Source: a virus
Lineage: Duplodnaviria > Heunggongvirae > Uroviricota > Caudoviricetes
Direction: 5' to 3' (one strand)
DNA length: 42,229 nucleotides
Virus record (IMG/VR): IMGVR_UViG_2718217897_000004
Shown here: positions 982 to 41,217 of the stretch, in pieces
How positions within the stretch are numbered: position 1 is the stretch's first letter
Layout: the number at the start of each line of letters is the position of its first letter
The notes under the pieces: model-generated
What the model was told of the DNA's origin: nothing
Seen by the model: the letters and a program-made list of their open reading frames with translations, nothing else
The model's database searches: none
Position numbers and translations under genes: made by a program

Positions 982-1033
982 AAATTCAATCACTTACACA
1001 TCATTAAGTCAGTGACAAAAATCACACTTGGAA

Positions 1034-2059
1034 TTACTTGGAATATTTTCTTGGAATATTTTCAGGTAACGGGACATCAAGTGTTGGTGAAACTTTAACC
1101 TTCCTGTCATAGATTAGCACTTGCCCTTCGGTTTTGTGACCAGAGAAAAGTTGCTTATCCCGGCTGCTTCCTTCATAGTCTGAAATTCCTTTCGCCTTCA
1201 GATCATGAAAGGTGAAGTCGGTTAAAATACCTGAAATTTTTCCAGCACGATTTCTTGCTTCTACCCACATTTCGTTAAAGCCTTTGTACATATATCGGTT
1301 GCCGTATTGATTGCTGATCACATAGGCAGATTTTGGTAACTGTTTTGCTTTTTCGATCGCTGCCTGTAATCGTGGACTCCATGCTTTTATCTGTTTTTTT
1401 CCGGTTTTCCCTTGCTGGATGAATATCCCGTCGTTTCCAATCTGTTCCCATTTCAGCGATAACACATCGGAAACCCTCGCTGCACACAGATAGGCAATTT
1501 CCATTGCGATAAAAACAGGAAGAGGTGCAACGCTTAATACTTCCTGGTATTCTTTGTCGGTTACATATCGTTCGCGGTTTTTGGCCTTGAATTTACTTAC
1601 ACCTGCACATGGGTTAGCCTTCACGTACCCTCGCTCATACCCCCAACTGTAAACACGGGACATACTGCTTTTTTCATGGTTGGCTTGCGTTTTACTCTGC
1701 TCCCCTCTTTTGTCCATGTATCGACGGATGTGTTCTGGTTTTATGGAATCCGCTGGTACCTTACCGAATACGGCAAGCAACTTTTTTTGATGTTGCAGAT
1801 AATCTTTTTGTGTTCTTGGACTAAGGTCACTGTAATAGGCGCTGGCGAGGAATTTTTCCCACAAGCGACCGAATGTCATTGCACGATCGCGATTATTTAC
1901 AGTTTCCTCATACTTTTTCCATAAAGCAGCTAAACCATCCTTGATGGCGGTTAGTGTGACAGATTCTCTGGATGTTGGTTTCCATACATAACTATATTTA
2001 TTTGGGTATACATTTGGAGGTAATTTTTCGTGTTCAGGATTTTTCCTTCGTCTTCCCAT
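1034..2059 (-). CDS. int: Phage integrase, tyrosine site-specific recombinase
   Basis: 341-aa ORF reading toward the tRNA; typical position and size; stop/start overlap with the upstream excisionase ORF. Confidence 0.88.
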   Translation of the reverse strand: MGRRRKNPEHEKLPPNVYPNKYSYVWKPTSRESVTLTAIKDGLAALWKKYEETVNNRDRAMTFGRLWEKFLASAYYSDLSPRTQKDYLQHQKKLLAVFGKVPADSIKPEHIRRYMDKRGEQSKTQANHEKSSMSRVYSWGYERGYVKANPCAGVSKFKAKNRERYVTDKEYQEVLSVAPLPVFIAMEIAYLCAARVSDVLSLKWEQIGNDGIFIQQGKTGKKQIKAWSPRLQAAIEKAKQLPKSAYVISNQYGNRYMYKGFNEMWVEARNRAGKISGILTDFTFHDLKAKGISDYEGSSRDKQLFSGHKTEGQVLIYDRKVKVSPTLDVPLPENIPRKYSK

Positions 2060-4747: not shown

Positions 4748-4840
4748 TATTGGTAAACCTCATCACAGATTTAAGGGTGAACAAATCTCTGCCATTGCTG
4801 ACATATAAGAATGAAACTGGATATTTATTACGGTGCTGTT

Positions 4841-5032
4841 TTAAAATTCTGCCGGGATTTCGTTATTATCCTGGTGAATAACTTTATCGACCGGATAACA
4901 GCTGCCTGGAATTTTCTGTTCGGTTGCTGCTGCCATACATTCCTGCATTGTTCTGTGAACACTGACTGCAATATCAACTGGCTCTCCGGAAACAAGAAAA
5001 ACCGTCAGAATAAGTGCAAATACTGGATTCAT
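4841..5032 (-). CDS. Small membrane/secreted protein at the ydfD position (YdfD-like)
   Basis: 63-aa frame from internal ATG MNPVFALILTVFLVSG... with hydrophobic N-terminus; AAGGA SD about 8 nt upstream; 4-nt overlap with dicB stop. Equivalence to YdfD is from position and length only. Confidence 0.45.
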   Translation of the reverse strand: MNPVFALILTVFLVSGEPVDIAVSVHRTMQECMAAATEQKIPGSCYPVDKVIHQDNNEIPAEF

Positions 5033-5217
5033 TGTGCACATCCTTTTGGCATCAGACGTAAACGGGCCAGCATTGAAACAATGCATACTTTATTTAATAA
5101 CTCCCGTTCGTGTTTTCTTTTGTTAATGGCATCTTCAGTAAATACAGGATTACTGATAGTGACACCAATTTCAAAACAACCTTCAGACGTATTAACGTTT
5201 GGTAATAACGTTTTCAT
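5029..5217 (-). CDS. dicB: Cell-division inhibitor DicB
   Basis: 62-aa frame MKTLLPNVNTSEGCFEIGVTISNPVFTEDAINKRK...SMLARLRLMPKGCAQ matches recalled DicB nearly residue for residue. Confidence 0.85.
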   Translation of the reverse strand: MKTLLPNVNTSEGCFEIGVTISNPVFTEDAINKRKHERELLNKVCIVSMLARLRLMPKGCAQ

Positions 5218-5386
5218 TATCGCGCCCTCAACAATGAGTTTTGTGATGCGGTGCCTGGTGCCTCCAGGTGACGTTAACCAGTTAACAATTAACGCCGGAT
5301 ACAGAGAATCCACCCATAACACTGTTTTTGGTTTTAACTGTTCCGCGTGCGCTTAGCCGCATTCACCGCATCACAAAATTCACTTT

Positions 5387-6601: not shown

Positions 6602-7009
6602 TTATCTTTTGTTTGTTCGTTGACGGGCTTTTAATAACTCTTCAAAGAGTTTGTTGAAATTTTTTACTCGGGCGCGCATCTCGGTGAGCTGAGCATCCTG
6701 TTCTGATTCAGGCAGTGCATTAAAAAGCTCAAGGAGCTCATGTTCTTTGGGGGATAGAGCAACTGGCTCCTCAATAGGTGGTGATGGCTGCTTGTCTTCA
6801 TCGCCAAATAGAATCCATGTTGGCGAGCACTGCAGTACTTTGCTGAGGGCAAAAAGATTCTTTCCTGTAGGTTCGCTATCATCCCGCTCCCATTGTGAAA
6901 CTGATACGTGAGAAATTTTCAGGGCTTTAGCAAGAGACCTTTGGGTGTATTTGAGGTTTTTTCGGCGATATCTAATGCGTTCGCCAATGGTTAAATTTTT
7001 TGTATCCAT
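6602..7009 (-). CDS. dicA: Repressor DicA (CI-type HTH repressor of the immunity region)
   Basis: 135-aa protein MDTKNLTIGERIRYRRKNLKYTQRSLAKALKISHVSVSQWER... matches recalled DicA in length and sequence. Confidence 0.9.
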   Translation of the reverse strand: MDTKNLTIGERIRYRRKNLKYTQRSLAKALKISHVSVSQWERDDSEPTGKNLFALSKVLQCSPTWILFGDEDKQPSPPIEEPVALSPKEHELLELFNALPESEQDAQLTEMRARVKNFNKLFEELLKARQRTNKR

Positions 7010-7044
7010 AGTTAGCTAATGCTAAATCTTATTGACTATGTTTT

Positions 7045-7076
7045 TGTTAACATCTATTTTGTTAGTCATGGCTAAC
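7045..7076. promoter_or_regulatory. Right operator/promoter region between dicA and dicC
   Basis: GTTAGTCATGGCTAAC (7061-7076) repeats the left-operator core; TGTTAACA palindrome at 7045-7052; divergent promoters expected here. Confidence 0.5.
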
Positions 7077-7092
7077 AATTAAGGTGCTTTAA

Positions 7093-7323
7093 ATGCTTAA
7101 AACTGACGCACTTTTGTATTTCGGTTCAAAAACAAAACTTGCACAAGCTGCTGGTATTCGTTTGGCTTCGCTTTATAGCTGGAAAGGGGAGCTAGTACCT
7201 GAAGGTCGCGCGATGCGCCTGCAAGAGGCATCCGGCGGGGAACTTCAGTACGACCCCAAAGTTTATGACGAATATCGTAAGGCAAAGCGGGCGGGGCGGT
7301 TGAACAATGAAAATCACCCCTGA
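7093..7323 (+). CDS. dicC: DicC (Cro-like regulator), divergent from dicA
   Basis: 76-aa protein MLKTDALLYFGSKTKLAQAAGIRLASLYSWKG... matches recalled DicC in length and sequence. Confidence 0.85.
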   Translation: MLKTDALLYFGSKTKLAQAAGIRLASLYSWKGELVPEGRAMRLQEASGGELQYDPKVYDEYRKAKRAGRLNNENHP

Positions 7324-10634: not shown

Positions 10635-10968
10635 GTTAAGTAATATTGTTTTATTTCCGGTAAAAGAGGATGACCCACGTAATCAGGTTAATTTTCTTTA
10701 TGAGCCATCGGAAAGACCATATTGTCATCACGCCTCTGTCCGGGTTGACGAAAAAGAGCGTCAGGTCCGCTGTAAAATCTGCGGTGCAGTTGTGGAGCCA
10801 TTTGACTGGATGCTCTCTGTGGCGAAAAGAGAAACCAGACTGGCAGATGATGTAAAACTATTGCGCCAGGAGGAACAGGAAAGGCGAAAAAATATAGAAA
10901 AGCTAATTCAGATTGAGCGTAATGCGAAAGCACGGATACGCAGGGTGACAAAATCCAGAACTGAATAA
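10612..10968 (+). CDS. Hypothetical protein with CHH...CxxC zinc-binding motif and basic coiled C-terminus
   Basis: 119-aa frame from ATG 10612 with GGAGAGGAG SD; PYCHHASV...CKICGAV motif. Confidence 0.5.
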   Translation: MEIKPEDELSNIVLFPVKEDDPRNQVNFLYEPSERPYCHHASVRVDEKERQVRCKICGAVVEPFDWMLSVAKRETRLADDVKLLRQEEQERRKNIEKLIQIERNAKARIRRVTKSRTE

Positions 10969-11061
10969 TTAAATTTAGCACTGTTAAAAATTTAATCCTT
11001 AACCGGAGGGATTTCTGCACCCTCAGAACAGCAGGAGGCCACCCGAAAGGGTGGTAGTGAA

Positions 11062-11244
11062 ATGCGAAAGTTCAAAATAATTATTGAAACGGGAATAGCT
11101 GGTGGAGATTTTGAGGATGTATTCGAAGTGGACGATGACGCAACACCTGATGAAATTCATGACGAAGCAAAAGAAATTTTCTTTAACTACTGCAATTACT
11201 CATATCACGAAATAAAAGACGAAGAGGAAGAACAAAATGGCTGA
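11062..11244 (+). CDS. Small acidic hypothetical protein
   Basis: 60-aa ORF; a GNRA-loop hairpin lies between its SD-like AGGAGG and the ATG. Confidence 0.4.
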   Translation: MRKFKIIIETGIAGGDFEDVFEVDDDATPDEIHDEAKEIFFNYCNYSYHEIKDEEEEQNG

Positions 11245-11413
11245 TTTTGGTTCAACTAAATACAACGTCAGTTTTGAAGAATGGCATGAACTGTTAATGG
11301 ACTATGCAGAGTTACGTGGTGGAAGTGCTGCTGATGCTGAAGCCTGGCATGATGACTACGAAGCAGGAAAAACTCCGGTCGAAGCATATTGTGATGAGTG
11401 GGGCGATGAATGA
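11237..11413 (+). CDS. Small acidic hypothetical protein (58 aa, below the ORF-track cutoff)
   Basis: ATG 11237 overlaps upstream stop (ATGGCTGA); stop overlaps next start (GATGAATGAGC); translationally coupled chain. Confidence 0.35.
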   Translation: MADFGSTKYNVSFEEWHELLMDYAELRGGSAADAEAWHDDYEAGKTPVEAYCDEWGDE

Positions 11414-14872: not shown

Positions 14873-15558
14873 ATAACCAGTATTTACAGTTTGTGCGTGA
14901 GCAGCTCATTATCGCCACCGCTGATTTGAGTGGGGCAACAAAAGGTCAGCTTGAAGCCTGGCAGGAGAATGCCATGTTCGATACAGGGCGTTACAGGCGA
15001 AAAAAAATCCGGTACCGCGATGAAGTGACTGGAAAAATGATAACGCGGGATAATCCACCAATCCCGGGAAAACAATCACTGGCGAATGGCTCATCAATTG
15101 CCCTAGTCAGCCCGGTTGAGTTTTCGACATCATCATGGCGGCGGGCTTTGCTGTCTCTTGAAGAGCATCATAAAGCCTGGTTGTTGTGGTGTTACGGCGA
15201 GAGTATTTGTTGGGAATATCAGATCGCGATAACACAGTGGGCGTGGAATGAATTTAATACTCAATCCGGTACCAGAAAAATTGCAGGGAAAACGCAGGAA
15301 CGCCTGAAAAAATTAATCTGGCTGGCGGCGCAGGCAGTAAAAGCAGAACTTTTTGGTGGGGAAGGTTATGAATACCAGGAGCTGGCATTACTGGCGGGAG
15401 TGACAACTAAAAACTGGTCCAAAACATTTACTCGTCACTGGGTTGCAATGAAACACATTTTTCAACGACTGGATAGTGAGGCTTTATTGTTTGTAATGAG
15501 AACACGTTCAAAACAAAAGGCGGCATTTTCAAAGCAAAGTGTTGCAAAAGTAGATTGA
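14869..15558 (+). CDS. Putative late-gene antiterminator (Q-position protein)
   Basis: 230-aa ORF between rusA and the lysis region, followed by a terminator; call is positional, no Q zinc-finger recognised. Confidence 0.45.
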   Translation: MNNQYLQFVREQLIIATADLSGATKGQLEAWQENAMFDTGRYRRKKIRYRDEVTGKMITRDNPPIPGKQSLANGSSIALVSPVEFSTSSWRRALLSLEEHHKAWLLWCYGESICWEYQIAITQWAWNEFNTQSGTRKIAGKTQERLKKLIWLAAQAVKAELFGGEGYEYQELALLAGVTTKNWSKTFTRHWVAMKHIFQRLDSEALLFVMRTRSKQKAAFSKQSVAKVD

Positions 15559-15623
15559 AAGGCATATATTTCATGCAAATCTGATATTTTGCCGATTTTG
15601 TACGTGATGGCAAAAGCAAACAA

Positions 15624-15648
15624 AACCCGCCCACAAGCGGGTTTTTTT
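15624..15648 (+). terminator. Rho-independent terminator downstream of the Q-like gene (tR'-like)
   Basis: ACCCGC-CCACAA-GCGGGT hairpin followed by TTTTTTT. Confidence 0.55.
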
Positions 15649-15731
15649 GTGCCACTTATCTCGGATAGACATGGTGAATGCGCTGGTGGAGGAAGTAAGA
15701 GTGATTTTTAACCAGTTGATTTTTTGAGTGC

Positions 15732-15760
15732 TTGCAACATTGATTTCGTAACGTTATTAT
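15732..15760 (+). promoter_or_regulatory. Sigma70-type promoter for the tRNA cluster
   Basis: TTGCAA, 17-bp spacer, TATTAT, ending 9 nt upstream of the first tRNA. Confidence 0.5.
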
Positions 15761-15769
15761 CCTGCGCCC

Positions 15770-15845
15770 GGCCCTTTAGCTCAGTGGTAAGAGCGAGCGA
15801 CTCATAATCGCCAGGTCGCTGGTTCAAATCCAGCAAGGGCCACCA
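15770..15845 (+). tRNA. tRNA with CAU anticodon, Ile2(LAU)-like (ileX/ileZ-like)
   Basis: 76 nt, acceptor GGCCCTT/AAGGGCC, anticodon loop CTCATAA; resembles recalled ileX. Confidence 0.8.
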
Positions 15846-15846
15846 G

Positions 15847-15923
15847 CCGCCACTAGCTCATCAGGAAAGAGCGTCAACCCTTTAAGTTGAGTGTGCGAGG
15901 TTCGAGTCCCCGGTGGCGATCCA
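15847..15923 (+). tRNA. tRNA-like gene of uncertain isotype (possibly degenerate)
   Basis: Cloverleaf can be drawn but with C1-A72 mismatch, one T-stem mismatch and anticodon loop CCTTTAA (C at position 33; anticodon would be UUU). Confidence 0.4.
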
Positions 15924-15925
15924 GT

Positions 15926-16001
<76 letters not shown>

Positions 16002-16004
16002 TAT

Positions 16005-16079
<75 letters not shown>

Positions 16080-18429: not shown

Positions 18430-18969
18430 TTAGAAACTGCGTGGAGCTGTGGAAAGAATGGATGCCAGTTCTTCCTTCGATAAATCCCAGCTTCGATTTA
18501 CAGCGTCAATTTTCTTAAACTCATCAAGCATTGCGTTATAGAGATGTTCTGTACGTGAATGAGTATTGGCAATGGGCTGTTTCTGTTCGGGGAAGCGATC
18601 AATTTTCTGATATGCCTCAATGATACTGAAGTAATCGCATTCATTATGACCGTCGAAACCTGGGAGCTGAATTTCCCCATCATGTATTTTTAGATGATGG
18701 TCACGGACTAATTCTTTTTGCTCGTCATCACTAAGTTTCCTGAAAGCATTGGAAAGTCCGCGGTACATATTCAAGACAGCAGTAACAAAATCACGATCTT
18801 CTTTACTTGGTTCATCAACATCCAAATGTGAATATTCGGCCTTCATAACCCAATCATTACCAGATGACACAGCATATTTTACAAGCTGTGGATCAATATC
18901 AGTTTCGATACCTAGGTGGATGGCAATGTCACATAACAAAATGGTATTGATTTTATCCTTAATATCCAT
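18430..18969 (-). CDS. YfbU-family (UPF0304-like) protein, reverse-oriented moron between lysis and packaging modules
   Basis: 179-aa ORF on the opposite strand to all surrounding late genes; segments ...LPGFDGHNECDYFSIIEAY... and ...NAMLDEFKKID... resemble recalled YfbU. Confidence 0.55.
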   Translation of the reverse strand: MDIKDKINTILLCDIAIHLGIETDIDPQLVKYAVSSGNDWVMKAEYSHLDVDEPSKEDRDFVTAVLNMYRGLSNAFRKLSDDEQKELVRDHHLKIHDGEIQLPGFDGHNECDYFSIIEAYQKIDRFPEQKQPIANTHSRTEHLYNAMLDEFKKIDAVNRSWDLSKEELASILSTAPRSF

Positions 18970-19107
18970 GAGTTAACCCTCTGAAGTAAAAAGTAATATC
19001 TACACCCGTTAGCTCATGAAGTCTATTGATCTGGCTCATATCAGCGGCAAATCTATTTCATGGAGATACTCAATGCAGGTCACTTTTGATTTATATAAGG
19101 GCGAAAC

Positions 19108-19458
19108 ATGCCAGCACTAATCCCACGAGCCTGCCGTAAACGTGGATGTGCAGGTACAACCACAGACAGTTCTGGTTACTGCGATAAACATCGTGGCGAA
19201 GGATGGGTACAGCATCAACGCGGACTGAGCCGCCACCAGCGTGGCTATGGCTCGAAATGGGATGCCATACGTGCGCGCATACTGAAGCGTGATAATCATC
19301 TGTGTCAGAACTGCCTGCGCAATGGGAGAGCCGTTGAAGCCAGAACTGTGGACCACATCATTCCGAAAGCTCATGGTGGCACGGATGCAGACAGTAACCT
19401 GCAGAGTCTGTGCTGGCCCTGTCATAAAGCAAAAACAGCGCGCGAACGCATCAATTGA
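19108..19458 (+). CDS. HNH endonuclease (terminase-associated)
   Basis: 116 aa with CxxC...CxxC and HNH motif DHIIPKAHGGTDADSNLQSLCWPCHKAKT; immediately upstream of terminase genes. Confidence 0.85.
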   Translation: MPALIPRACRKRGCAGTTTDSSGYCDKHRGEGWVQHQRGLSRHQRGYGSKWDAIRARILKRDNHLCQNCLRNGRAVEARTVDHIIPKAHGGTDADSNLQSLCWPCHKAKTARERIN

Positions 19459-27597: not shown

Positions 27598-27969
27598 ATG
27601 ACTAAAAATATCCGTAATCTGGCACTGGCAACGATGTCGGGGTTTCGCCATAAAACTGTTGATGTGCATGAATGGGAAGGGGCAACGGTTGTATTACGGG
27701 AACCTTCTGCAGAAGCCTGGTTGCGCTGGCAGGAGATCGTTAAAGCAAAAGATGATGAGACACCGTTATCCGTTGCGGAGCGCGCCCGCCGAAATCTGGA
27801 GGCAGATGTTGAACTGTTCATTGATGTTCTGTGTAATACCGGACTGCAACCTGTATTTTCAGAGGATGATCGTGAACAGGTGATTGCCGTGTATGGCCCG
27901 GTGCATGCGCGGCTTCTTCGGCAGTCTCTGGAACTGATCAGTGATGCCGGTGAGGTTAAAAAAAAGTAG
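27598..27969 (+). CDS. Tail assembly chaperone (lambda G-like)
   Basis: Frame ends ...GTT AAA AAA AAG TAG with a slippery A7G run just before the stop. Confidence 0.7.
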   Translation: MTKNIRNLALATMSGFRHKTVDVHEWEGATVVLREPSAEAWLRWQEIVKAKDDETPLSVAERARRNLEADVELFIDVLCNTGLQPVFSEDDREQVIAVYGPVHARLLRQSLELISDAGEVKKK

Positions 27970-27980
27970 CGCTTCCGGGG

Positions 27981-28271
27981 ATGCGTTTTCTGATGATGCT
28001 GGCGCTCAGGATGGGGCGCACATTGTCAGAGTTACGCCGGGAAATGTCCGCATCAGAAATCATGATGTGGGCAGAATTTGACAGGTTCAGCCCGCTGGGT
28101 GACGAGCGGGCTGATATCCGGGCTGCCCAGATAGTTTCTGCGGTTTACGGTGCGCAGGGTGTCAAAGTCCCACTGAATGATGCGCTTCTTCAGTGGGAGC
28201 ATGATTCAGAAGAAAATAAATGCGATGATCCATTTATTGGATTAGAGGTTGCTCTAATGTCTTCACTATAA
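27981..28271 (+). CDS. T-like extension of the tail assembly chaperone, reached by programmed -1 frameshift (GT fusion)
   Basis: Open frame in the -1 frame relative to G starting right after the slippery site; no independent SD. Confidence 0.55.
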   Translation: MRFLMMLALRMGRTLSELRREMSASEIMMWAEFDRFSPLGDERADIRAAQIVSAVYGAQGVKVPLNDALLQWEHDSEENKCDDPFIGLEVALMSSL

Positions 28272-28329
28272 GATAATTTTTTAATCGTTTTGAAATTGAA
28301 TGCTTAACTCAAAGTCAGGAGGATTAATC

Positions 28330-28671
28330 ATGAGAAAATCAGTGGTGACATTAGCTTGTTTGTTTTTTATTAGTGCATGTAAACCATCAGATAATTATGT
28401 TATTTCTTTAGGGGAAAACTTAGTTAAAGATAAGCTTATTGATCCTGATAGTGCAAAATTTAATTCTTTTTTTCATAAGTCAGGTGATTTATATGGTTAT
28501 GTTTGTGGGGATGTTAATTCAAAAAACACGTTTGGTGGATATACAGGGAAAAAGCCATATTTTGTTTATTTGGAAGTTGTGGATGGAAAAGTTAAGAGTC
28601 ATGGGACTGTAACAATTGTTAATGATCATGATCCAAGCAGTATGGAAAAATATAAGTTGTTTTGCCAATAA
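28330..28671 (+). CDS. Lipoprotein of unknown function (moron inside the tail operon)
   Basis: 113-aa frame from ATG 28330 with AGGAGG SD; signal peptide with lipobox FISAC; visibly AT-rich; own terminator (28686-28707). Confidence 0.6.
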   Translation: MRKSVVTLACLFFISACKPSDNYVISLGENLVKDKLIDPDSAKFNSFFHKSGDLYGYVCGDVNSKNTFGGYTGKKPYFVYLEVVDGKVKSHGTVTIVNDHDPSSMEKYKLFCQ

Positions 28672-28720
28672 TTATCATCTTAAAAAACCGCAGAAGCGGT
28701 TTTTTTATGGGGTAAAATAA

Positions 28721-31700
28721 ATGGCGACATTACGTGAACTGATTATTAAAATATCGGCAAACTCCCGGTCATTCCAGTCAGAGATCTCCCGGGCTTCGCG
28801 TATGGGGCAGGATTACTACCGCACCATGCAGAACGGAGGCCGACAGTCTGCTGCTGCATCCCGTGAAATGCGGCGTGCACTGGCAGAAGTGACGGATCAG
28901 ATAAATACAGCTAAATCTTCGGCACTGAATATGGCGGGGGCATTTGCCGGAGCTTTTGCTACCGGTCATCTTATTTCTCTCGCCGATGAGTGGAATTCAG
29001 TAAATGCCCGTCTGAAGCAGGCCTCACAGTCCAGTGATGATTTTCAGGCATCACAGCGTGAATTAATGGCGATCAGCCAGAGAACGGGGACGGCGTTTTC
29101 TGATAACGCCAGCCTTTTTGCCCGTTCTGCAGCTTCCATGCGGGAGTATGGTTACAGTTCTGAGGAGGTACTGAAAGTCACCGAGGCGATCTCCACGGGC
29201 CTGAAATTATCCGGTGCCAGTACAGCAGAAGCCAGTTCGGTGATCACGCAGTTCAGTCAGGCTCTGGCGCAGGGAGTGCTGCGTGGTGAAGAGTTTAACT
29301 CGGTGAATGAGAACGGCGATCGTGTTATTCGTGCGCTGGCTGCGGGAATGGGAGTTGCCCGTAAGGATCTGAAGGCCATGGCGGATAACGGAAAACTGAC
29401 CGCCGATAAGGTTGTTCCTGCACTGATTAGTCAGCTTGGGGCATTACGTGATGAATATGCGGCAATGCCTGATACGGTTTCATCCTCTGCAACCAAAGTT
29501 GAAAACGCCTTTATGGCCTGGGTTGGTGGTGCGAACGAGGCAAGCGGAGTGACGAAGACGCTCTCCGGTGTGCTGAATGGTATTGCAGGCAATATTGACA
29601 CCGTGGCAACCGCTGCCGGTGCTCTGGTTGCCGTCGGGGTAGCCCGATATTTTGGCAATATGGCGTCTTCTGCTGGTTCTGCAACTGCCGGGCTAATCAC
29701 TGCGGCCAGAAACGAAGTGGCTCTTGCGGAAGCGCAGCTCCGGGGGACGCAGATAGCAACAGCCAGGGCGCGTGCGGCAGTTTATCGTGCGCAACAGGCG
29801 GTTGCTGCTGCTCGCGGTACCGAAAGGCAGGCAGCCGCAGAATCGAAACTGGCTGCTGCCCAGGCGTCACTTACCCGTAATATTGCGGCCAGAACAGCGG
29901 CACAGACAACGCTGAATAATGTTACGTCAGTGGGGAGCCGTCTGTTAAGTGGTGCGCTGGGGTTGGTTGGTGGTGTGCCGGGACTCGTCATGTTGGGGGC
30001 GACGGCCTGGTACACGATGTATCAGAATCAGGAGCAGGCCAGAGAATCTGCACGCCAGTATGCCGCAACAATCGACGAAATTCGCCAGAAAACGTCGGCA
30101 ATGTCGCTTCCTGAAGCGTCAGATAATGAGGAAAAGACGCGGCAGGCACTGGAGGAACAAAATCGCCTGATTAGCGAACAGGAAGGAAAAATTCGCGGAC
30201 TGAAAAATCAAATTGCTGATTATCAACGCTGGCTTGATGAAAGTTCGCAGAGTGGTTCGGGTGCTGAAATCATCCTTAAAGGGCTTGCCGAAGCAACAAA
30301 TCAACTGGCAGTTGAACAGTCTCGCCTCACTCAAATGCAGGGCAAAGCGCAATCCATTCAGGATGTGCTTGCCGGGCTGGAGGAGCGACGAGTGGCGTTG
30401 ATCCGTCAACAGGCAGCGGAACAAAACAAAGCGTATCAGTCCCTGTTGATCATGAATGGGCAGCATACCGAGTTTAATCGCCTTCTCGGGCTTGGTAATG
30501 AATTACTTCAGCAGCGACAGGGGCTGGTGAATGTACCATTACGGCTGCCACAGGCAACCCTGGATGATAAACAGCAGACCGCACTGAATAACAGCAAGCG
30601 CGAACTGGCTCTGTCCCGCCTTAAGGGGGAAGCGCGTGAGCGTGCCCGACTGGGCTATGCTGCGGATGATCTCGGCTTTGTGGGGGAGGCATATCAGACA
30701 GCCAGACAGAATTATATCAATAACTCACTGGATGCCTGGCGAAATAACCAGGCAAATAAACCCAAAGCGCATAAAAAGACCGAAGCGGAAAAAACAGAAG
30801 ATATTTATAAACGGCTGATTAAACAGCAAAAAGAACAGATAGCACTGGCAGGGCAGAATACTGAACTGGCTAAGATGAAATATCAGGTCAGTCAGGGCGA
30901 ATTATCAACCCTGTCAGAAGCGCAGAAAAAAACGCTTTTACAGAATGCAGCACTCATCGACCAGAAAAAGATTCGTGAGCAGCTTGCCGCGTATGAAAGC
31001 AGTCTGGCGGACAGTAATGCCAGTGCCCGGGCATCTGACGACGCGCAGTTGCTGGGATATGGTGAAGGCTCACGGATGCGTGAACGACTCCAGGAAATGT
31101 GGAGTATCCGGCAGGCGTTTGAGCAGAAAAATAACGAGCTACTGAGACAGTATCAGGCCGGAGAAATTGAAGAAGCCCTGTGGAAACAGGAAAAATCGCT
31201 GAATGAGAAATATCTGGAAGAGCGTCTCAGCGATCAGCAGGATTATTATGCAAAGGCTGATGCTTTACGCAGTGACTGGAATGCCGGCCTCCAGGAGGGA
31301 CTGACGAACTGGGTAGACAGTGCCACCGATTATGCTTCGCAGGCGGCAGATGCTGTCGTTTCCACTATGGACGGGCTGGTATCAAATATTTCCGATGCAC
31401 TGGCCGGAAATGTTGTGGACTGGCGAAACTGGGGGAGTTCAATTTTCCAGGAAGTTTCAAAAATTCTGATGAACGCTGCCATCGTTAACGGGCTGAAGTC
31501 ACTTTCCAAAAGCATGTCCGGTGCCGGAGGATGGCTTGGTACGGTCGGCGACTGGCTTTCCGGTGCAGTGGCAAACGCAAAAGGTGGTGTTTACACATCG
31601 GCAAATCTGAGTGCTTACAGTAACACTATTGTGGATACACCGACGTATTTTGCTTTTGCGAAAGGTGCCGGGCTGATGGGCGAGGCCGGGCCTGAAGCTA

Positions 31701-31933
31701 TCATGCCACTGACACGGGCAGCGGACGGCTCTCTTGGGGTCAGAGCCATTGGCAATGTGAATGGTGGCGGGGGATTTGTTTATTCTCCCGTGTATCACAT
31801 CAGTATTCAGAATAAAGGGAGCAATGGCGAGATAGATACGCAGTCAGCCAGGGGGCTGGTGGATCTGATCGACAGCAGGGTTGTGTCAATTATGCAGTCA
31901 TCACGTCGGGACGGAGGATTATGCAGTGTCTGA
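28721..31933 (+). CDS. Tail tape-measure protein
   Basis: 1070-aa helix-rich, Ala/Gln-rich protein between chaperone and M/L/K/I/J. Confidence 0.88.
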   Translation: MATLRELIIKISANSRSFQSEISRASRMGQDYYRTMQNGGRQSAAASREMRRALAEVTDQINTAKSSALNMAGAFAGAFATGHLISLADEWNSVNARLKQASQSSDDFQASQRELMAISQRTGTAFSDNASLFARSAASMREYGYSSEEVLKVTEAISTGLKLSGASTAEASSVITQFSQALAQGVLRGEEFNSVNENGDRVIRALAAGMGVARKDLKAMADNGKLTADKVVPALISQLGALRDEYAAMPDTVSSSATKVENAFMAWVGGANEASGVTKTLSGVLNGIAGNIDTVATAAGALVAVGVARYFGNMASSAGSATAGLITAARNEVALAEAQLRGTQIATARARAAVYRAQQAVAAARGTERQAAAESKLAAAQASLTRNIAARTAAQTTLNNVTSVGSRLLSGALGLVGGVPGLVMLGATAWYTMYQNQEQARESARQYAATIDEIRQKTSAMSLPEASDNEEKTRQALEEQNRLISEQEGKIRGLKNQIADYQRWLDESSQSGSGAEIILKGLAEATNQLAVEQSRLTQMQGKAQSIQDVLAGLEERRVALIRQQAAEQNKAYQSLLIMNGQHTEFNRLLGLGNELLQQRQGLVNVPLRLPQATLDDKQQTALNNSKRELALSRLKGEARERARLGYAADDLGFVGEAYQTARQNYINNSLDAWRNNQANKPKAHKKTEAEKTEDIYKRLIKQQKEQIALAGQNTELAKMKYQVSQGELSTLSEAQKKTLLQNAALIDQKKIREQLAAYESSLADSNASARASDDAQLLGYGEGSRMRERLQEMWSIRQAFEQKNNELLRQYQAGEIEEALWKQEKSLNEKYLEERLSDQQDYYAKADALRSDWNAGLQEGLTNWVDSATDYASQAADAVVSTMDGLVSNISDALAGNVVDWRNWGSSIFQEVSKILMNAAIVNGLKSLSKSMSGAGGWLGTVGDWLSGAVANAKGGVYTSANLSAYSNTIVDTPTYFAFAKGAGLMGEAGPEAIMPLTRAADGSLGVRAIGNVNGGGGFVYSPVYHISIQNKGSNGEIDTQSARGLVDLIDSRVVSIMQSSRRDGGLCSV

Positions 31934-38530: not shown

Positions 38531-40936
38531 ATGGCAGCAGTAAAAATCTCAGGTGTGCTGAAAGATGGTGCGGGAAAACCAATACAGAACTGCACTATTC
38601 AACTGAAGGCAAAGCGTAACAGCACCACGGTACTGGTGAACACGGTGGCTTCTGAAAATCCGGATGAAGCCGGACGTTACAGCATGGATGTTGAGTATGG
38701 CCAGTACAGCGTCACCCTGCTGGTTGAAGGTTTTCCGCCTTCACATGCCGGGACCATTACCGTCTATGAAGGCTCCAGACCAGGTACGCTGAATGATTTT
38801 CTCGGTGCCATGACGGAAGATGATGTCATGCCGGAGGCATTGCGTCGTTTTGAGGCAATGGTGGAAGAAGTGGCACGCAACGCCGAAGCCGCCTCTCAGA
38901 GCGCAGCGGCGGCAAAGAAATCCGAAACTGCAGCGGCATCATCAAAGAACGCGGCGAAAACCTCAGAAACGAATGCAGCTAATAGTGCACAGGCGGCAGC
39001 GACCTCAAAGACTGCATCGGCAAACTCCGCGACAGCAGCCAAAAAATCAGAAACCAACGCGAAAAATAGCGAGACAGCCGCAAAGACGAGCGAAACCAAC
39101 GCAAAGTCCAGCCAGACGGCAGCGAAAACCAGCGAAACGAATGCCAAAGCCAGTGAAACTGCGGCGAAAAGCAGTCAGGCTGCAGCAGCCCAAAGCGAGA
39201 GCGCGGCAGCCGGTTCTGCGACTTCAGCAGCTGGATCAGCAACTGCTGCGGCTAACAGCCAGAAAGCTGCGAAGACGAGTGAAACTAACGCAAAGTCCAG
39301 CCAGACGGCAGCGAAGACCAGCGAAACGAATGCCAAAGCCAGTGAAACTGCGGCGAAAAGCAGTCAGGATGCAGCGGCCCAAAGCGAGAGTGCCGCAGCC
39401 AGTTCTGCAAGCGCGGCGGCTGCTTCTGCCACTGCATCAGCTAACAGTCAAAAAGCAGCAAAAACCAGTGAAACCAACGCAAAGGCGAGCGAGACTGCGG
39501 CGGCGAACTCGGCGCAAGCATCGGCAGCAAGCCAGACAGCAGCTAAAGCAAGTGAAGACGCAGCCAGAGAGTATGCAAGCCAGGCAGCGGAGCCGTATAA
39601 ACAAGTTTTGCAGCCGTTGCCCGATGTGTGGATACCGTTTAATGATTCACTGGATATGATTACGGGCTTTTCGCCATCATATAAAAAAATTGTTATTGGC
39701 GACGATGAAATAACAATGCCTGGCGACAAGATTGTAAAGTTTAAACGCGCATCGAAAGCAACTTACATTAATAAATCTGGTGTGCTGACAGAGGCTGCCA
39801 TTGACGGGCCACGATTTGAACGTGATGGCCTGCTTATTGAGGGGCAAAGAACTAACCTGCTAATCAATTCAACAAATCCGACTAAATGGAACAAGTCGTC
39901 AAATATGATCTTAAGTGCATCAGGTGTAGATGATTTCGGATTCCAGTACGCAAAATTTACATTAAAACCAGAAATGGTAGGGCAAATTTCAGCGATTAAC
40001 ATAGTAACCGTTTCCGGCAGTAAAGGTTTTGATGTAACAGGCGGAGAAAAGTATGTAACCATATCATGCAGGGTGCAAAGTGGCACTCCAAATTTAAGAT
40101 GCCGATTACGATTTGAAAACTATGATGGTTCTACCTACACATTCTTAGGTGACGCTTACTTAAATACGACAGATTTATCTATTGATAAGACGGGTGGTGC
40201 CGCTAATCGCATTACTGCAAGGGCTGTTAAAGATGAAGCAAGCAAATGGATCTTTTTTGAGGCGACAATTAAGGCACTTGATACAGAAAATATGATAGGT
40301 GGAATGGTTCAGTATGCCCCGGCAAAAGGAGTGGGCACTGGCGCGGATGATTATATTTATATTGCGACCCCTCAAGTTGAAGGTGGGGCGTGCGCTTCAT
40401 CGTTTATTATAACAGGCGCATCCCCTGTAACACGCGCCAGCGATATTGTAACGGTCCCCATTTCTCTAAATTGGTGCAATCCCGCTATTAGTTCATTAGC
40501 AGAAGTTAATACCAATTGGGATGAATCGCCAAACAAAGAAGGTAGCGCACGTATTCTTAATATTTCCACTACGGGAGATACAACTGAAATTGCAGATGAA
40601 AGTTATATGTATTTGGGGTATACATCTTTGGGAGCACGCGCAATCATTACAAATGGTAAAGGCACTAAAATAGAATATAAAAGCGTTATAGAACGACCAG
40701 AGAGAAAAAGCATTATCGGCTTTAGATTCACAGAAAGTCGAGAATTGTGTGTTGTGGTTAACGGTAATATTGGTGCTAAGGTAGTTTCTCCTTATAAAAA
40801 ACACAAATATACAGGAGGCTTCATTAATATTGGTGGTCAATCATCATCCGGCAACCGTCACCTATTTGGACACGTTCGAAATCTGCGTATTTGGCACAAG
40901 GCATTGACTGATGCTCAGATGGGGGAGTCAATCTAA
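38531..40936 (+). CDS. Side tail fibre protein (lambda Stf-like N-terminus; Ala/Ser/Thr-rich repeat shaft; distinct C-terminal domain)
   Basis: N-terminal MAAVKISGVLKDGAGKPIQNCTIQLKAKRNSTTV... matches recalled lambda Stf; C-terminal about 440 aa is visibly more AT-rich and ends ...NLRIWHKALTDAQMGE, which resembles a LamG/ConA-like lectin motif. Confidence 0.85.
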   Translation: MAAVKISGVLKDGAGKPIQNCTIQLKAKRNSTTVLVNTVASENPDEAGRYSMDVEYGQYSVTLLVEGFPPSHAGTITVYEGSRPGTLNDFLGAMTEDDVMPEALRRFEAMVEEVARNAEAASQSAAAAKKSETAAASSKNAAKTSETNAANSAQAAATSKTASANSATAAKKSETNAKNSETAAKTSETNAKSSQTAAKTSETNAKASETAAKSSQAAAAQSESAAAGSATSAAGSATAAANSQKAAKTSETNAKSSQTAAKTSETNAKASETAAKSSQDAAAQSESAAASSASAAAASATASANSQKAAKTSETNAKASETAAANSAQASAASQTAAKASEDAAREYASQAAEPYKQVLQPLPDVWIPFNDSLDMITGFSPSYKKIVIGDDEITMPGDKIVKFKRASKATYINKSGVLTEAAIDGPRFERDGLLIEGQRTNLLINSTNPTKWNKSSNMILSASGVDDFGFQYAKFTLKPEMVGQISAINIVTVSGSKGFDVTGGEKYVTISCRVQSGTPNLRCRLRFENYDGSTYTFLGDAYLNTTDLSIDKTGGAANRITARAVKDEASKWIFFEATIKALDTENMIGGMVQYAPAKGVGTGADDYIYIATPQVEGGACASSFIITGASPVTRASDIVTVPISLNWCNPAISSLAEVNTNWDESPNKEGSARILNISTTGDTTEIADESYMYLGYTSLGARAIITNGKGTKIEYKSVIERPERKSIIGFRFTESRELCVVVNGNIGAKVVSPYKKHKYTGGFINIGGQSSSGNRHLFGHVRNLRIWHKALTDAQMGESI
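39101..39408 (+). repeat. Near-identical direct repeat (about 120 bp, two copies, 189-bp period) within the tail-fibre shaft
   Basis: 39101-39219 and 39290-39408 differ at only a few positions; encode repeated ...KTSETNAKSSQTAAKTSETNAKASETAAKSSQ... Confidence 0.6.
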
Positions 40937-41217
40937 TGAAAGATTTAACACTCAAATTTGCCGACAGGGCCGACTTTTCGGCCTTTATGGGAAGTATTGG
41001 CTATTATAATGACGAGTCGATGCAGGATGATATTCTGATTGATGTGATAGGTAACGTGTACAAAGAAACCGGAGAGCTGACTGAAGATGGCGAACCGGTA
41101 TGTGTTAAGGAAGATGGATATTTTGTAAACGTGCGCATCATTAAGGATACGCAAATATCGTCATTATTCGATGAATACGCGGTTGCTGTTGAGCATCAAC
41201 TTCGTGGCTGGATGTGA
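40936..41217 (+). CDS. Hypothetical acidic protein following the tail fibre gene
   Basis: 93-aa ORF overlapping the stf stop by 1 nt. Confidence 0.4.
   Translation: MKDLTLKFADRADFSAFMGSIGYYNDESMQDDILIDVIGNVYKETGELTEDGEPVCVKEDGYFVNVRIIKDTQISSLFDEYAVAVEHQLRGWM

What the first reader, a model, noticed from the sequence alone, without database searches (positions are those of the whole stretch)
28272..28710. AT-rich lipoprotein moron inserted between the tail chaperone and tape-measure genes
A self-contained unit (strong SD, lipobox signal peptide MRKSVVTLACLFFISAC, own terminator) sits inside an otherwise tightly coupled tail operon, in a stretch visibly more AT-rich than its neighbours. Phage lipoproteins at such positions are often superinfection-exclusion or surface-modifying factors; this family is not one I recognise.
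Basis: partly seen in the sequence, partly recalled or inferred. Interest (0 to 1): 0.55.

Follow-up and report, generated by a model that had tools for sequence, protein, structure and literature searches.

The report
Lipoprotein moron beside the tape-measure gene
An E. coli prophage carries an extra, AT-rich gene for a small outer-membrane lipoprotein in the same tail-operon gap where phage "morons" were first described; the protein family is large, unstudied and often sits beside phage tape-measure genes, so it is a good but untested candidate for blocking infection by other phages.

Summary
Window 28330-28671 (+) encodes a 113-aa protein with an AGGAGG ribosome-binding site, a lipobox (ISA|C17) and a strong hairpin terminator. 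It lies in the lowest-GC stretch of the 42-kb window (GC 0.30, GC3 0.19, against about 0.52 in the flanks).

It is a true accessory insert. Phages and about 900 E. coli prophages with roughly 97% identical T and tape-measure flanks mostly have the slot empty. Some carry an unrelated zinc-ribbon membrane protein instead, and 17 of 5,426 genomes carry this gene. The slot is orthologous to that of HK97 gene 15, the archetypal moron.

The protein evolves under purifying selection (dN/dS 0.09-0.17). It has a confident cystatin/NTF2-like model and belongs to a large unannotated exported family (9,877 clusters, no Pfam model). In 52 of 80 viral loci its homologues lie directly beside a tape-measure gene.

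Function is untested. Superinfection exclusion at the cell envelope is the best-supported guess (about 0.4-0.5). I file it as a new member of a known kind, of moderate interest.

The parts
27598..27969 (+). Tail assembly chaperone G, the upstream neighbour
   Evidence: ORF. RefSeq annotates it as 'phage tail assembly chaperone' in the 100%-matching MS8345 locus. Homologous loci carry Pfam Phage_TAC_1 here.
27960..27966 (+). Slippery heptamer A AAA AAG for the -1 frameshift that makes the G-T fusion
   Evidence: Read directly. A -1 slip here continues in frame into the T ORF (27981-28271). HK97 annotates the equivalent -1 frameshift product.
27981..28271 (+). T portion of the tail assembly chaperone (Phage_tail_T / DUF4035)
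   Evidence: ORF; annotation. The last ~24 codons (28199-28271) are AT-rich (GC3 0.16) and diverge from relatives with an empty slot.
28199..28720 (+). Full extent of the exchanged AT-rich cassette: T 3' tail, leader, lipoprotein gene, terminator and tape-measure leader
   Evidence: Alignments with phi467 (empty slot), E. coli 33E (zinc-ribbon cargo) and HK97 lose identity after ...CTTCTTCAGTGGGAG and regain it at the tape-measure start. The GC trough is shown.
28249..28277 (+). Candidate sigma-70 promoter TTGCTC-17 nt-GATAAT (weak, unproven)
   Evidence: Own PWM scan scores it 8.6, which is not above shuffles of the same AT-rich DNA (mean 8.9). The consensus scan did not call it. Both hexamers are conserved in the 93% variant L010.
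28317..28322 (+). Shine-Dalgarno AGGAGG, 7 nt upstream of the ATG
   Evidence: Read directly.
28330..28671 (+). Lipoprotein gene, 113 aa: signal peptide residues 1-16, lipobox ISA|C17, mature domain of about 96 aa
   Evidence: ORF. RefSeq CDS WP_071605788.1 has the same coordinates. phrog_2320 matches at E = 2e-33. dN/dS is 0.09-0.17. AF2 model has pLDDT 87.7.
28682..28706 (+). Rho-independent terminator hairpin (A6CCGC-AGAA-GCGGT7)
   Evidence: Inverted repeat I6. Fold is -14.6 kcal/mol, z = -5.5. Every lipoprotein cassette in other lineages is also followed by a terminator, each with a different sequence.
28721..31933 (+). Tail tape-measure protein, the downstream neighbour (HK97 type)
   Evidence: ORF; annotation. 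Its 5' end aligns with HK97 gene 16. Homologous loci carry TMP_3, Phage_HK97_TLTM and Tape_meas_lam_C.

Best explanation
This is a moron: a horizontally exchanged accessory cassette of about 520 bp (window ~28199-28720). It sits in the T-to-tape-measure gap of an HK97-like tail operon in an E. coli prophage, the same slot as HK97 gene 15.

Shown by sequence and comparison: the cassette consists of a recoded 3' end of gene T, a short leader, a 113-aa gene and a terminator. It was most likely swapped in by recombination between the conserved body of T and the terminator/tape-measure start.

Inferred from sequence rules: the product is exported and lipidated at Cys17. Because residue +2 is Lys rather than Asp, it should be sorted to the inner face of the outer membrane. 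A tether of only about four residues holds a compact disulfide-stabilised cystatin/NTF2-like domain against that membrane.

Inferred from analogy and gene linkage: when made in the lysogen, the protein acts at the cell envelope to stop superinfecting phages. It would do so either by interfering with the periplasmic, tape-measure-dependent step of genome delivery, or by binding an outer-membrane or periplasmic host component that incoming phages need.

My confidence that it is an accessory moron encoding an exported lipoprotein is about 0.9. My confidence that its role is phage exclusion is about 0.4-0.5. The single confidence figure given for this explanation (0.5) refers to the whole statement, including the exclusion role.
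For: Accessory insert:
- Flanks are 97-98.5% identical in phages that lack ~404 bp here.
- Among about 903 E. coli genomes with these flanks, 17 carry the gene. In the 60-row spread, 6 carry an unrelated 113-aa zinc-ribbon membrane protein, 2 carry this gene, 1 matches only part of the query, and the other 51 show the short, empty-slot span.

Foreign composition:
- GC 0.30 and GC3 0.19; this is the lowest-GC stretch of the window.
- Cassettes in Citrobacter, Enterobacter and Salmonella prophages show the same contrast, 0.35-0.36 against 0.50-0.56.

Same slot as the archetype:
- HK97 has T, then gp15, then a terminator, then the tape-measure gene, and the tape-measure 5' ends align with the window.
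- gp15 is a prophage-expressed exclusion protein that blocks genome entry in a tail-dependent way (PMC3594210).

Real gene:
- dN/dS is 0.09-0.17.
- The lipobox and a CKPS tether are conserved.
- Two Cys residues (C59, C112) are nearly invariant across 105 diverse homologues.

Linkage to tape-measure genes:
- Homologues at 36-58% identity occupy the same T-TMP slot in Enterobacter/Citrobacter, Citrobacter and Salmonella prophages, in a distant siphophage and in ES18 (gp20).
- Others lie directly after the tape-measure gene.
- In 52 of 80 IMG/VR loci the gene is an immediate neighbour of a tape-measure gene (17 of 29 clusters at 80% identity). All 10 sampled neighbours were confirmed by Pfam.
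- The same holds for 13 of 79 species-representative genomes, from Pseudomonas to Campylobacter.

Precedents: lipoproteins encoded inside structural gene clusters exclude phages in mEpimmI (PMC11893012). Periplasm-facing outer-membrane lipoproteins Llp and Rtp45 block FhuA and LptD (PMC12685063).
Against: - There is no experimental datum on expression or phenotype for any member. All source names are 'hypothetical', 'lipoprotein' or 'SPOR domain-containing'.
- A promoter cannot be distinguished from chance in this AT-rich DNA, so expression in the lysogen is assumed, not shown.
- There is no PADLOC hit.
- Strong purifying selection and a deeply conserved motif (DPxSAxF...CGxVNAKNxxGGYxG) fit a conserved host ligand better than an arms race with variable phage proteins. 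So do the 9,877 cluster representatives, many outside tail operons or outside prophages.
- The neighbouring tape-measure proteins belong to different families (TMP_3/HK97 type and TMP_2/lambda type).
- The tape-measure-flanking gaps are general moron hot-spots: HK97 gp15, the zinc-ribbon gene, ES18 gp18-20 and Arc/Ant genes all sit there. The linkage may therefore reflect a permissive site rather than function.
- Family members also occupy other moron slots: K-I, ogr-int, beside an O-antigen acetylase, and beside a polymorphic toxin cassette.
Confidence: 0.5

Rival explanations
1. It is a lysogenic-conversion factor aimed at the host envelope rather than at phages. The conserved domain would bind a universal envelope component such as peptidoglycan or a periplasmic enzyme. 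It could, for example, act as a cystatin-like inhibitor of peptidoglycan hydrolases or of incoming toxins, or contribute to stress or serum resistance. Its place in the tail operon would then be only a permissive insertion site.
For: - The family is very large and taxonomically broad, with a near-invariant motif and low dN/dS.
- Some members are fused to peptidoglycan-binding SPOR domains.
- Many members lie outside tail clusters or outside recognisable prophages.
- One member sits next to a polymorphic toxin/immunity pair.
Against: - A roughly 100-fold enrichment next to tape-measure genes is hard to explain by permissiveness alone, given that the family also uses several other slots.
- No similarity to Bor or to any annotated inhibitor family.
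- The window's tape-measure protein has no recognisable hydrolase domain to be inhibited (homologous loci).
Confidence: 0.3
2. It is a receptor-masking lipoprotein of the Cor/Llp/Rtp45 type. It would bind the periplasmic face of the outer-membrane receptor used by this phage and distort the receptor's surface loops. This would both exclude competitors and protect released progeny from cell debris.
For: - It is a small outer-membrane-sorted lipoprotein with a very short tether and a conserved disulfide, like Llp and Rtp45 (PMC12685063).
- It is encoded in the tail region, like cor in HK022.
- Lipoproteins from mEpimmI structural clusters exclude phages in a way that correlates with receptor type (PMC11893012).
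Against: - No sequence similarity to Cor, and no exclusion-annotated PHROG among the hits.
- The gene is linked to the tape-measure gene, not to the receptor-binding protein. A phage with a 96% identical J C-terminus lacks it.
- Homologues occur in actinobacterial phages, whose hosts have no comparable outer-membrane receptors.
- At about 96 aa, the mature protein is larger than the ~6-kDa Llp/Rtp45 class.
Confidence: 0.15
3. It is a tail structural or assembly protein needed by this phage.
For: It lies inside the tail operon, on the same strand as the tail genes and next to the tape-measure gene in many lineages.
Against: - It is absent from viable isolated phages with 97-98% identical neighbouring genes.
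- It is absent from about 98% of E. coli prophages with these flanks.
- An exported lipoprotein cannot join cytoplasmic tail assembly.
- It has foreign composition and is followed by a terminator.
Confidence: 0.03
4. It is a spurious or decaying ORF in a patch of AT-rich junk DNA.
For: Frameshifted copies exist in public assemblies (P0003, P0009, P0013). AT-rich DNA readily yields open reading frames and promoter-like or hairpin-like motifs by chance.
Against: - dN/dS is 0.09-0.17 over pairs from 62% to 95% amino-acid identity.
- Thousands of homologues share a conserved motif and Cys pair.
- The structure prediction is confident.
- The ribosome-binding site is optimal.
Confidence: 0.02

Closest known systems
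HK97 gene 15 moron (gp15, YebO-like inner-membrane superinfection exclusion protein)
   Same: It occupies the orthologous genomic slot: after the G/G-T chaperone genes, followed by a rho-independent terminator, immediately before a homologous HK97-type tape-measure gene. Both are accessory and of deviating composition, and both encode a small envelope protein. gp15 blocks genome entry in a tail-dependent manner (PMC3594210).
   Different: The proteins are unrelated. gp15 is a 62-aa single-pass membrane protein without a lipobox. The window protein is a 113-aa lipoprotein with a folded cystatin/NTF2-like periplasmic domain. No function has been shown for the window protein.
Salmonella phage ES18 gp20 ('possible moron; function unknown')
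   Same: It is a true homologue: 41% identity over the core motif, E = 5e-15. It sits directly upstream of the tape-measure gene and has its own predicted terminator.
   Different: gp20 is 151 aa with a longer N-terminal part and lacks the C-terminal helix match. It shares the slot with two further putative morons (gp18, gp19). It is also uncharacterised.
Receptor-blocking outer-membrane lipoproteins Cor (HK022/phi80/N15), Llp (T5) and Rtp45 (Rtp)
   Same: All are small phage-encoded lipoproteins facing the periplasm from the outer membrane and stabilised by a disulfide. They are encoded among tail or host-recognition genes and give superinfection exclusion (PMC12685063; PMC3594210).
   Different: No sequence similarity to Cor, and none of these families appears in the PHROG or fold hits. 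Those genes are linked to the receptor-binding protein gene, whereas this one is linked to the tape-measure gene and is independent of J type. The mature domain here is larger.
Ltp of Streptococcus thermophilus phage TP-J34
   Same: It is a prophage-encoded surface lipoprotein that blocks DNA injection, and the tape-measure protein was identified as its target (from my own knowledge of Bebeacua et al. 2013; Ltp as the prototype is described in PMC3952083). This is the mechanism I consider most likely here.
   Different: Ltp comes from a Gram-positive host, has a helical repeat fold and is encoded in the lysogeny module rather than next to the tape-measure gene. I made no direct sequence or structure comparison.
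Lambda Bor (Iss-like serum-resistance lipoprotein)
   Same: It is a prophage-expressed outer-membrane lipoprotein moron of similar size.
   Different: No detectable similarity. It lies at a different genomic location, next to the lysis genes.

Membership tests
Moron (sense of Juhala/Hendrix 2000, as summarised in PMC3594210) | Extra DNA between two genes that are adjacent in related phages | tested here: met
   phi467, Evi and nine other phages match the flanks at 97-98.5% but span 1214 bp instead of 1618 bp. Most of the ~903 E. coli prophages with these flanks have the short form.
Moron (sense of Juhala/Hendrix 2000, as summarised in PMC3594210) | Nucleotide composition differs from the surrounding genes | tested here: met
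   GC is 0.304 against about 0.52, and GC3 is 0.19 against 0.5-0.6. This is the lowest-GC stretch of the window.
Moron (sense of Juhala/Hendrix 2000, as summarised in PMC3594210) | Own transcription terminator | tested here: met
   The hairpin at 28682-28706 folds at -14.6 kcal/mol, z = -5.5. Caveat: the same stem is present in empty-slot and zinc-ribbon variants.
Moron (sense of Juhala/Hendrix 2000, as summarised in PMC3594210) | Own promoter | tested here: inconclusive
   The best candidate is TTGCTC-17-GATAAT, with a PWM score of 8.6-9.1 against a shuffle mean of 8.9. Other lineages share GTGACA-N16-18-TAGGAT/TAGCAT/GATAAT, with the -35 hexamer 54-58 nt upstream of the ATG.
Moron (sense of Juhala/Hendrix 2000, as summarised in PMC3594210) | Expressed from the repressed prophage | not testable with these tools
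   This needs RNA-seq, 5'-RACE or a reporter in a lysogen.
Bacterial lipoprotein (Lgt/LspA/Lnt pathway) | Signal peptide ending in the lipobox [LVI][ASTVI][GAS]C | tested here: met
   MRK-SVVTLACLFF-ISA|C17. 'ACKPS' is nearly invariant in the subfamily, and a loose lipobox-like pattern is common across the superfamily.
Bacterial lipoprotein (Lgt/LspA/Lnt pathway) | Residue +2 is not Asp, so the protein is sorted by Lol to the outer membrane | tested here: met
   Residue +2 is Lys (CKPS). This is rule-based; localisation was not measured.
Bacterial lipoprotein (Lgt/LspA/Lnt pathway) | Actual lipidation and globomycin-sensitive processing | not testable with these tools
   This is a biochemical assay.
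PHROG phrog_2320 (phage protein family of unknown function) | Full-length profile match | tested here: met
   E = 2e-33, residues 1-113 against profile positions 19-138 of 171. Six further unknown-function PHROGs match the core.
Cor superinfection exclusion family | Sequence similarity to HK022 Cor | tested here: not met
   BLASTP finds no alignment at E <= 100, and there is no Cor-annotated PHROG hit.
Bor/Iss family | Sequence similarity to lambda Bor | tested here: not met
   BLASTP finds no alignment at E <= 100.
HK97 gp15 / YebO family | Short single-pass membrane protein similar to YebO | tested here: not met
   gp15 is a 62-aa TM protein. The window protein has a cleavable lipoprotein signal and a folded domain, with no family hit. 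Only the genomic slot is shared.
T5 Llp / Rtp45 class | Sequence or fold similarity to Llp or Rtp45 | not tested
Cystatin / NTF2-like (VirB8-like) fold | An alpha helix packed on a curved antiparallel beta-sheet | tested here: met
Known anti-phage defence systems (PADLOC-DB 2.0) | Profile match to any catalogued defence protein | tested here: not met
   No families match at E <= 10.

The most novel reading that the evidence does not exclude
The gene is a member of a very widespread, unrecognised class of envelope-anchored cystatin/NTF2-like proteins that temperate phages carry next to their tape-measure genes. These proteins would block genome delivery by other tailed phages. They would do so by binding, through the invariant DPxSAxF / CGxVNAKNxxGGYxG surface, a conserved element of the periplasmic injection step: a tape-measure C-terminal module, or a host factor or cell-wall feature that it needs. 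This would be a new and general superinfection-exclusion family spanning Proteobacteria and perhaps Actinobacteria.
Probability: 0.3. Interest if true: 0.75.

Novelty: new member of a known kind. Interest (0 to 1): 0.48.

Why it matters
Morons in tail operons are a known source of prophage-conferred traits, and the only one studied in this exact slot (HK97 gp15) is a superinfection-exclusion protein.

This cassette puts a different, uncharacterised protein in that slot. The protein belongs to a family with roughly ten thousand 50%-identity clusters, no Pfam model and no tested member, yet it is repeatedly encoded right beside phage tape-measure genes.

If it blocks genome delivery, it would add a broadly distributed envelope-level defence family. 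It would also give a handle on the poorly understood periplasmic stage of siphophage DNA injection, and it would matter for predicting phage-therapy failure in lysogens. If instead it binds a host envelope component, it defines a new conserved periplasmic domain.

Either way the test is cheap: one gene, one plasmid and a phage panel.

Tried and rejected
- **PDB lead 8vb2_I** ('octameric ejection protein gp49', E = 0.6 with the subfamily profile). It disappeared with a broader 105-sequence profile. Only short chance matches to alpha-lytic protease remained. Rejected as noise.
- **Pfam, NCBIfam and PADLOC** on the protein and on 20 distant relatives. No family covers the domain; the only hits are SPOR on fused C-termini.
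- **Source names** for 10 clusters and 120 profile hits. None is informative.
- **Foldseek against PDB.** Nothing significant. afdb50 was unavailable. BFVD returned only uncharacterised phage lipoproteins.
- **Terminator scan.** It missed the hairpin; direct folding resolved this.
- **Promoter.** It cannot be separated from the AT-rich background.
- **Rfam.** It gave only sub-threshold chance hits: isrK at 17.6 bits against a gathering score of 50, and a eukaryotic scaRNA.
- **Low-GC donor among species-representative genomes.** The closest relatives are 52-55% identical, in Kluyvera, Enterobacter and Pseudescherichia, so the donor is unknown.
- **Tai tail-assembly-interference systems** (PMC11364771). 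They lie mostly upstream of the packaging module and are not lipoproteins. Not relevant.
- **P-FimU** (PMC12952977), **VarioGold** (PMC9658991) and **mEpimmI Lpp** (PMC11893012). These serve as precedents only. No mEp phage appeared among the tblastn hits, but I did not verify that those genomes are in the collection.
- **5' leader structure that sequesters the Shine-Dalgarno.** z = -2.2 for the long form and +0.2 for the short form, so not convincing.
Full report
**1. What is in the sequence**

The 42-kb window is an E. coli lambdoid/HK97-like prophage. It has an HK97-type head, G/G-T tail chaperones, a tape-measure gene and M-L-K-I-J tail-tip genes. A 561-nt stretch around the finding is 100% identical to E. 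coli MS8345.

The finding's features are all present:
- Gene T ends at 28271 and the tape-measure gene starts at 28721.
- Between them lies an ORF at 28330-28671, 113 aa, beginning MRKSVVTLACLFFISAC.
- An AGGAGG sits 7 nt upstream of the ATG.
- The signal peptide is canonical and ends in the lipobox ISA|C17.
- A perfect 10-bp hairpin with a T run lies at 28682-28706. It folds at -14.6 kcal/mol, z = -5.5.

RefSeq annotates the same CDS as 'hypothetical protein'.

Composition is a strong outlier. Gene GC is 0.304 and GC3 is 0.193, against about 0.50-0.55 in the neighbours. The lowest-GC 342-nt window of the entire sequence starts at 28201.

**2. It is an insertion, and the slot is polymorphic**

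Eleven sequenced phages, including phi467, Evi and the vB_Eco*-R* series, match the flanks at 97-98.5% but lack about 404 bp here.

In 5,426 complete E. coli genomes, about 903 carry this T/tape-measure junction. Only 17 carry the lipoprotein gene, including a 93-94% nucleotide variant.

In a 60-row spread down the ranking:
- 51 rows show the short span expected of an empty slot, though I inspected the sequence only in phi467.
- 6 rows carry an unrelated 113-aa membrane protein annotated 'zinc ribbon domain-containing' at the same position.
- 2 rows carry the lipoprotein gene.
- 1 row is a partial match.

Alignment of the three slot states sets the boundaries. Identity is lost inside T, after ...CTTCTTCAGTGGGAG at about window 28199. 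It returns at the tape-measure start. The exchanged unit is therefore about 28199-28720. It includes a recoded, AT-rich version of the last ~24 codons of T (GC3 0.16).

All three states share the hairpin stem AACCGC...GCGGTTTTTTT. The loop is AGAA in this cassette and TTCG in the others. The terminator is therefore a feature of the slot as much as of the cassette. Together with the T body it is a plausible anchor for cassette exchange by homologous recombination, but that step is my inference.

Phage vB_EcoS-640R1 has the same flanks and a 96% identical J C-terminus, yet its slot is empty. The gene is therefore neither structural nor tied to the receptor-binding type.

**3. The slot is the archetypal moron site**

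In HK97 the order is G/G-T, then gene 15 ('moron product'), then a terminator, then the tape-measure gene. The HK97 tape-measure 5' end aligns with the window's. The term 'moron' was first applied to HK97 gene 15, whose product is a prophage-expressed inner-membrane protein. It blocks genome entry of HK97-like phages in a tail-dependent way (PMC3594210).

gp15 (62 aa, single transmembrane segment) is unrelated to the window protein. The second slot used by close homologues, between K and I in phages Fraca and LMessi, is where HK022 carries its gene 20 moron.

**4. The protein**

No Pfam, NCBIfam or PADLOC family matches it. It belongs to phrog_2320 (E = 2e-33, unknown function) and touches six more unknown-function PHROGs.

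It is a real gene under purifying selection. dN/dS is 0.09 against the 95%-identical variant and 0.14-0.17 for more distant pairs.

A profile search of 1.84 billion cluster representatives finds 9,877 relatives at E <= 1e-3. Those I inspected are mostly proteins of 100-150 aa, and many have a lipobox-like motif near the N-terminus.

Nearly invariant positions across 105 diverse members are D38 P39 S41 A42 F44, C59 G60 N63 K65 N66 G69 Y71 G73, and C112. This gives the motif LKDPxSAxF...vCGxVNAKNsfGGYxG plus a Cys pair. In an exported protein that pair most likely forms a disulfide (my inference). Some relatives carry a C-terminal SPOR peptidoglycan-binding domain.

- Latexin, cystatins and many NTF2-like proteins.

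Foldseek against PDB gives the same class without significance. BFVD returns only uncharacterised phage lipoproteins, such as those of Gordonia phage Sidious and Rhodobacter phage RcSpartan. No solved relative is detectable by sequence.

Residue +2 after the lipidated Cys is Lys and the tether is only about four residues (CKPS, conserved). By the standard Lol sorting rule the domain should sit on the inner face of the outer membrane. That is an inference, not a measurement.

**5. Where relatives are encoded**

This is the most informative new result.

Homologues found in the same T-to-tape-measure slot:

| Homologue | Identity to window protein | Host or phage |
|---|---|---|
| P0011 | 48% | Enterobacter/Citrobacter prophages |
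| P0007 | 58% | Citrobacter |
| P0212 | 56% | Salmonella |
| P0229 | 36% | a distant siphophage |
| ES18 gp20 | 41% over the core | Salmonella phage ES18, annotated 'possible moron' with its own terminator |

Others lie directly after the tape-measure gene: P0198 in Pantoea, and P0215 together with Arc/Ant genes.

Each cassette examined in the Enterobacter/Citrobacter and Citrobacter lineages is AT-rich (0.35-0.36 against 0.50-0.56). The cassettes in all four lineages examined (Enterobacter/Citrobacter, Citrobacter, Salmonella, Pantoea) are each followed by their own, different rho-independent terminator.

I then made the count systematic. Of the 80 best IMG/VR loci, 52 have the gene as an immediate neighbour of a tape-measure gene. 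That is 17 of 29 clusters at 80% identity and 9 of 17 at 60%. All 10 sampled large neighbours are tape-measure proteins by Pfam:
- In the 6 TMP_3-type cases (4 of which also carry the HK97 TLTM domain) the lipoprotein gene is upstream.
- In the 4 TMP_2/lambda-type cases it is downstream.

Among 79 loci from species-representative genomes, 13 are adjacent to a tape-measure gene. The genera include Kluyvera, Brenneria, Pseudomonas, Leclercia, Pantoea, Atlantibacter, Janthinobacterium, Xenorhabdus, Edwardsiella and Campylobacter concisus. A further 7 have a tape-measure gene within 4 kb.

By my rough estimate, chance adjacency would be a few percent within a phage genome and well under 1% in a bacterial genome.

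Caveats:
- My tape-measure reference set is small, so these counts are lower bounds.
- The 80 viral loci are biased towards relatives of the query.
- These gaps are general moron hot-spots (HK97 gp15, the zinc-ribbon gene, ES18 gp18-20, Arc/Ant).

Family members also occupy other accessory positions:
- between K and I, in Fraca, LMessi and Pseudomonas AUS531phi;
- between ogr and int in P2-like SEN4/5;
- beside an O-antigen acetyltransferase in PAJU2;
- beside a polymorphic toxin/immunity pair in Mycobacterium abscessus prophages;
- in chromosomal or integrative-element contexts.

**6. How it most likely works**

Shown by sequence and comparison:
- an accessory cassette in a recombination-prone slot;
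- foreign composition;
- a strong ribosome-binding site and a terminator;
- a selected, folded domain with a lipoprotein export signal.

Inferred:
- transcription in the lysogen, since the promoter evidence is inconclusive;
- lipidation and outer-membrane sorting;
- the biological role.

I favour envelope-level superinfection exclusion, for four reasons. The only characterised occupant of this slot does exactly that. Lipoproteins encoded within structural clusters have been shown to exclude phages (mEpimmI Lpp021 and Lpp010, PMC11893012). Periplasm-facing outer-membrane lipoproteins are a proven exclusion device (Llp with FhuA, Rtp45 with LptDE; PMC12685063). And the family is strikingly linked to the gene whose product crosses the periplasm during injection.

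One body of evidence counts against a simple arms-race model: low dN/dS, the invariant motif, the breadth of the family and the SPOR fusions. These point to a conserved ligand. That could be a host factor or cell-wall feature used during injection, or it could have nothing to do with phages (the main rival, about 0.3). A structural role and a spurious ORF are effectively excluded.

**7. Comparison with known families, and novelty**

- It meets the definition of a moron on three of the features testable here. Extra DNA and deviating composition are met. The terminator is met with a caveat. The promoter is inconclusive, and expression could not be tested.
- It meets the sequence definition of a bacterial lipoprotein.
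- It is not a member of the Cor, Bor or gp15/YebO families, nor of any catalogued defence system.
- It is a member of phrog_2320 and a homologue of ES18 gp20, both of unknown function.

I found no paper describing this family. I therefore file it as a new member of a known kind. The family-level linkage to tape-measure genes is the part that may be new.

**8. Verdict**

Interest is moderate (0.48). The anatomy is textbook. The cargo, however, is a large, unannotated and evidently functional family with a suggestive genomic habit and a cheap decisive experiment.

Noticed in passing
L009:649-990 (E. coli 33E), the slot equivalent to window 28272-28720: In other E. coli prophages with ~97% identical flanks, the same slot holds an unrelated 113-aa protein. 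It has a hydrophobic N-terminus and two CxxC pairs, and RefSeq annotates it 'zinc ribbon domain-containing'. It is the same length as the lipoprotein gene and is followed by the TTCG-loop version of the terminator. It accounts for 6 of the 60 sampled genomes.
   Followed up: partly
L001:2190-2234 (phi467); window 28682-28706: A rho-independent terminator hairpin (AACCGC-TTCG-GCGGTTTTTTT) sits between T and the tape-measure gene even in phages whose slot is empty. It may be a relic of a lost moron or a standing insulator in the middle of the late tail operon. HK544 and HK97 also annotate a terminator at this spot.
   Followed up: partly
window 28213-28222 and 28714-28723: An exact 10-nt direct repeat, AAAATAAATG, lies near both ends of the exchanged cassette, and the right copy includes the tape-measure ATG. 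In AT-rich DNA this is probably chance, but it could mark microhomology used in an exchange.
   Followed up: no
P0003, P0009, P0013 (public assemblies); window ~28526-28550: Frameshifted versions of the gene occur in read-archive assemblies. The sequences diverge near homopolymer A runs (tcaaaaaacacg, gggaaaaagcc). These may be sequencing errors, decay or slippage-based on/off switching; I did not resolve which.
   Followed up: no
window 28254-28354; L011:3940-4000: A 14-nt inverted repeat (86% complementary) pairs the end of T with codons 4-8 of the lipoprotein gene. The predicted leader fold also pairs the AGGAGG (z = -2.2 for the long form, +0.2 for the short form). The Enterobacter/Citrobacter lineage has a 9-bp hairpin (CCCTATGAG...CTCATAGGG) directly upstream of its start codon. 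This may indicate translational control that differs between read-through and moron transcripts, but the evidence is weak.
   Followed up: partly
L002:5355-5690 (phage Fraca): In Fraca the homologous lipoprotein gene in the K-I slot is followed immediately by a second gene whose product also starts with a lipoprotein-like signal (MKKIILPIFIFLLMGC). This looks like a two-lipoprotein cassette.
   Followed up: no
window 15770-16079 and 892-981: A cluster of four phage-borne tRNA genes lies in the window: Met/Ile2-type CAU, Lys UUU, Thr UGU and Gly UCC. A separate tRNA-Ser (CGA) near the left end may mark the integration site. The Lys, Thr and Gly anticodons read A-ending codons. I did not tabulate codon usage to see whether the lipoprotein gene favours those codons.
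   Followed up: no
window 28721-31933 compared with L004:20522-23761: The window's tape-measure ORF is 27 nt (9 codons) shorter than that of MS8345. The tRNA cluster is also offset relative to MS8345. So the window is not from that strain, although the moron region is 100% identical.
   Followed up: no
window 961-1363, 4491-5343, 6761-7233, 10871-11403, 15401-15763, 18481-19163, 39631-41013: These are further stretches with GC below 0.40 in 342-nt windows, and some may be other accessory cassettes. None is as low as the lipoprotein region. In the related MS8345 prophage, an Ail/Lom-family gene and tail-fibre genes are annotated downstream of J.
   Followed up: no
L016:3940-4000, L020:3440-3500, L021:3440-3500: Three divergent lipoprotein cassettes share a promoter-like GTGACA-N16-18-TAGCAT/TAGGAT/GATAAT, with the -35 hexamer 54-58 nt upstream of the ATG. 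They come from Citrobacter and Salmonella (before the tape-measure gene) and Pantoea (after it). In L016 and L020 the GTGACA overlaps the stop codon of the upstream gene T. This suggests that the mobile unit begins at its own -35 element.
   Followed up: partly
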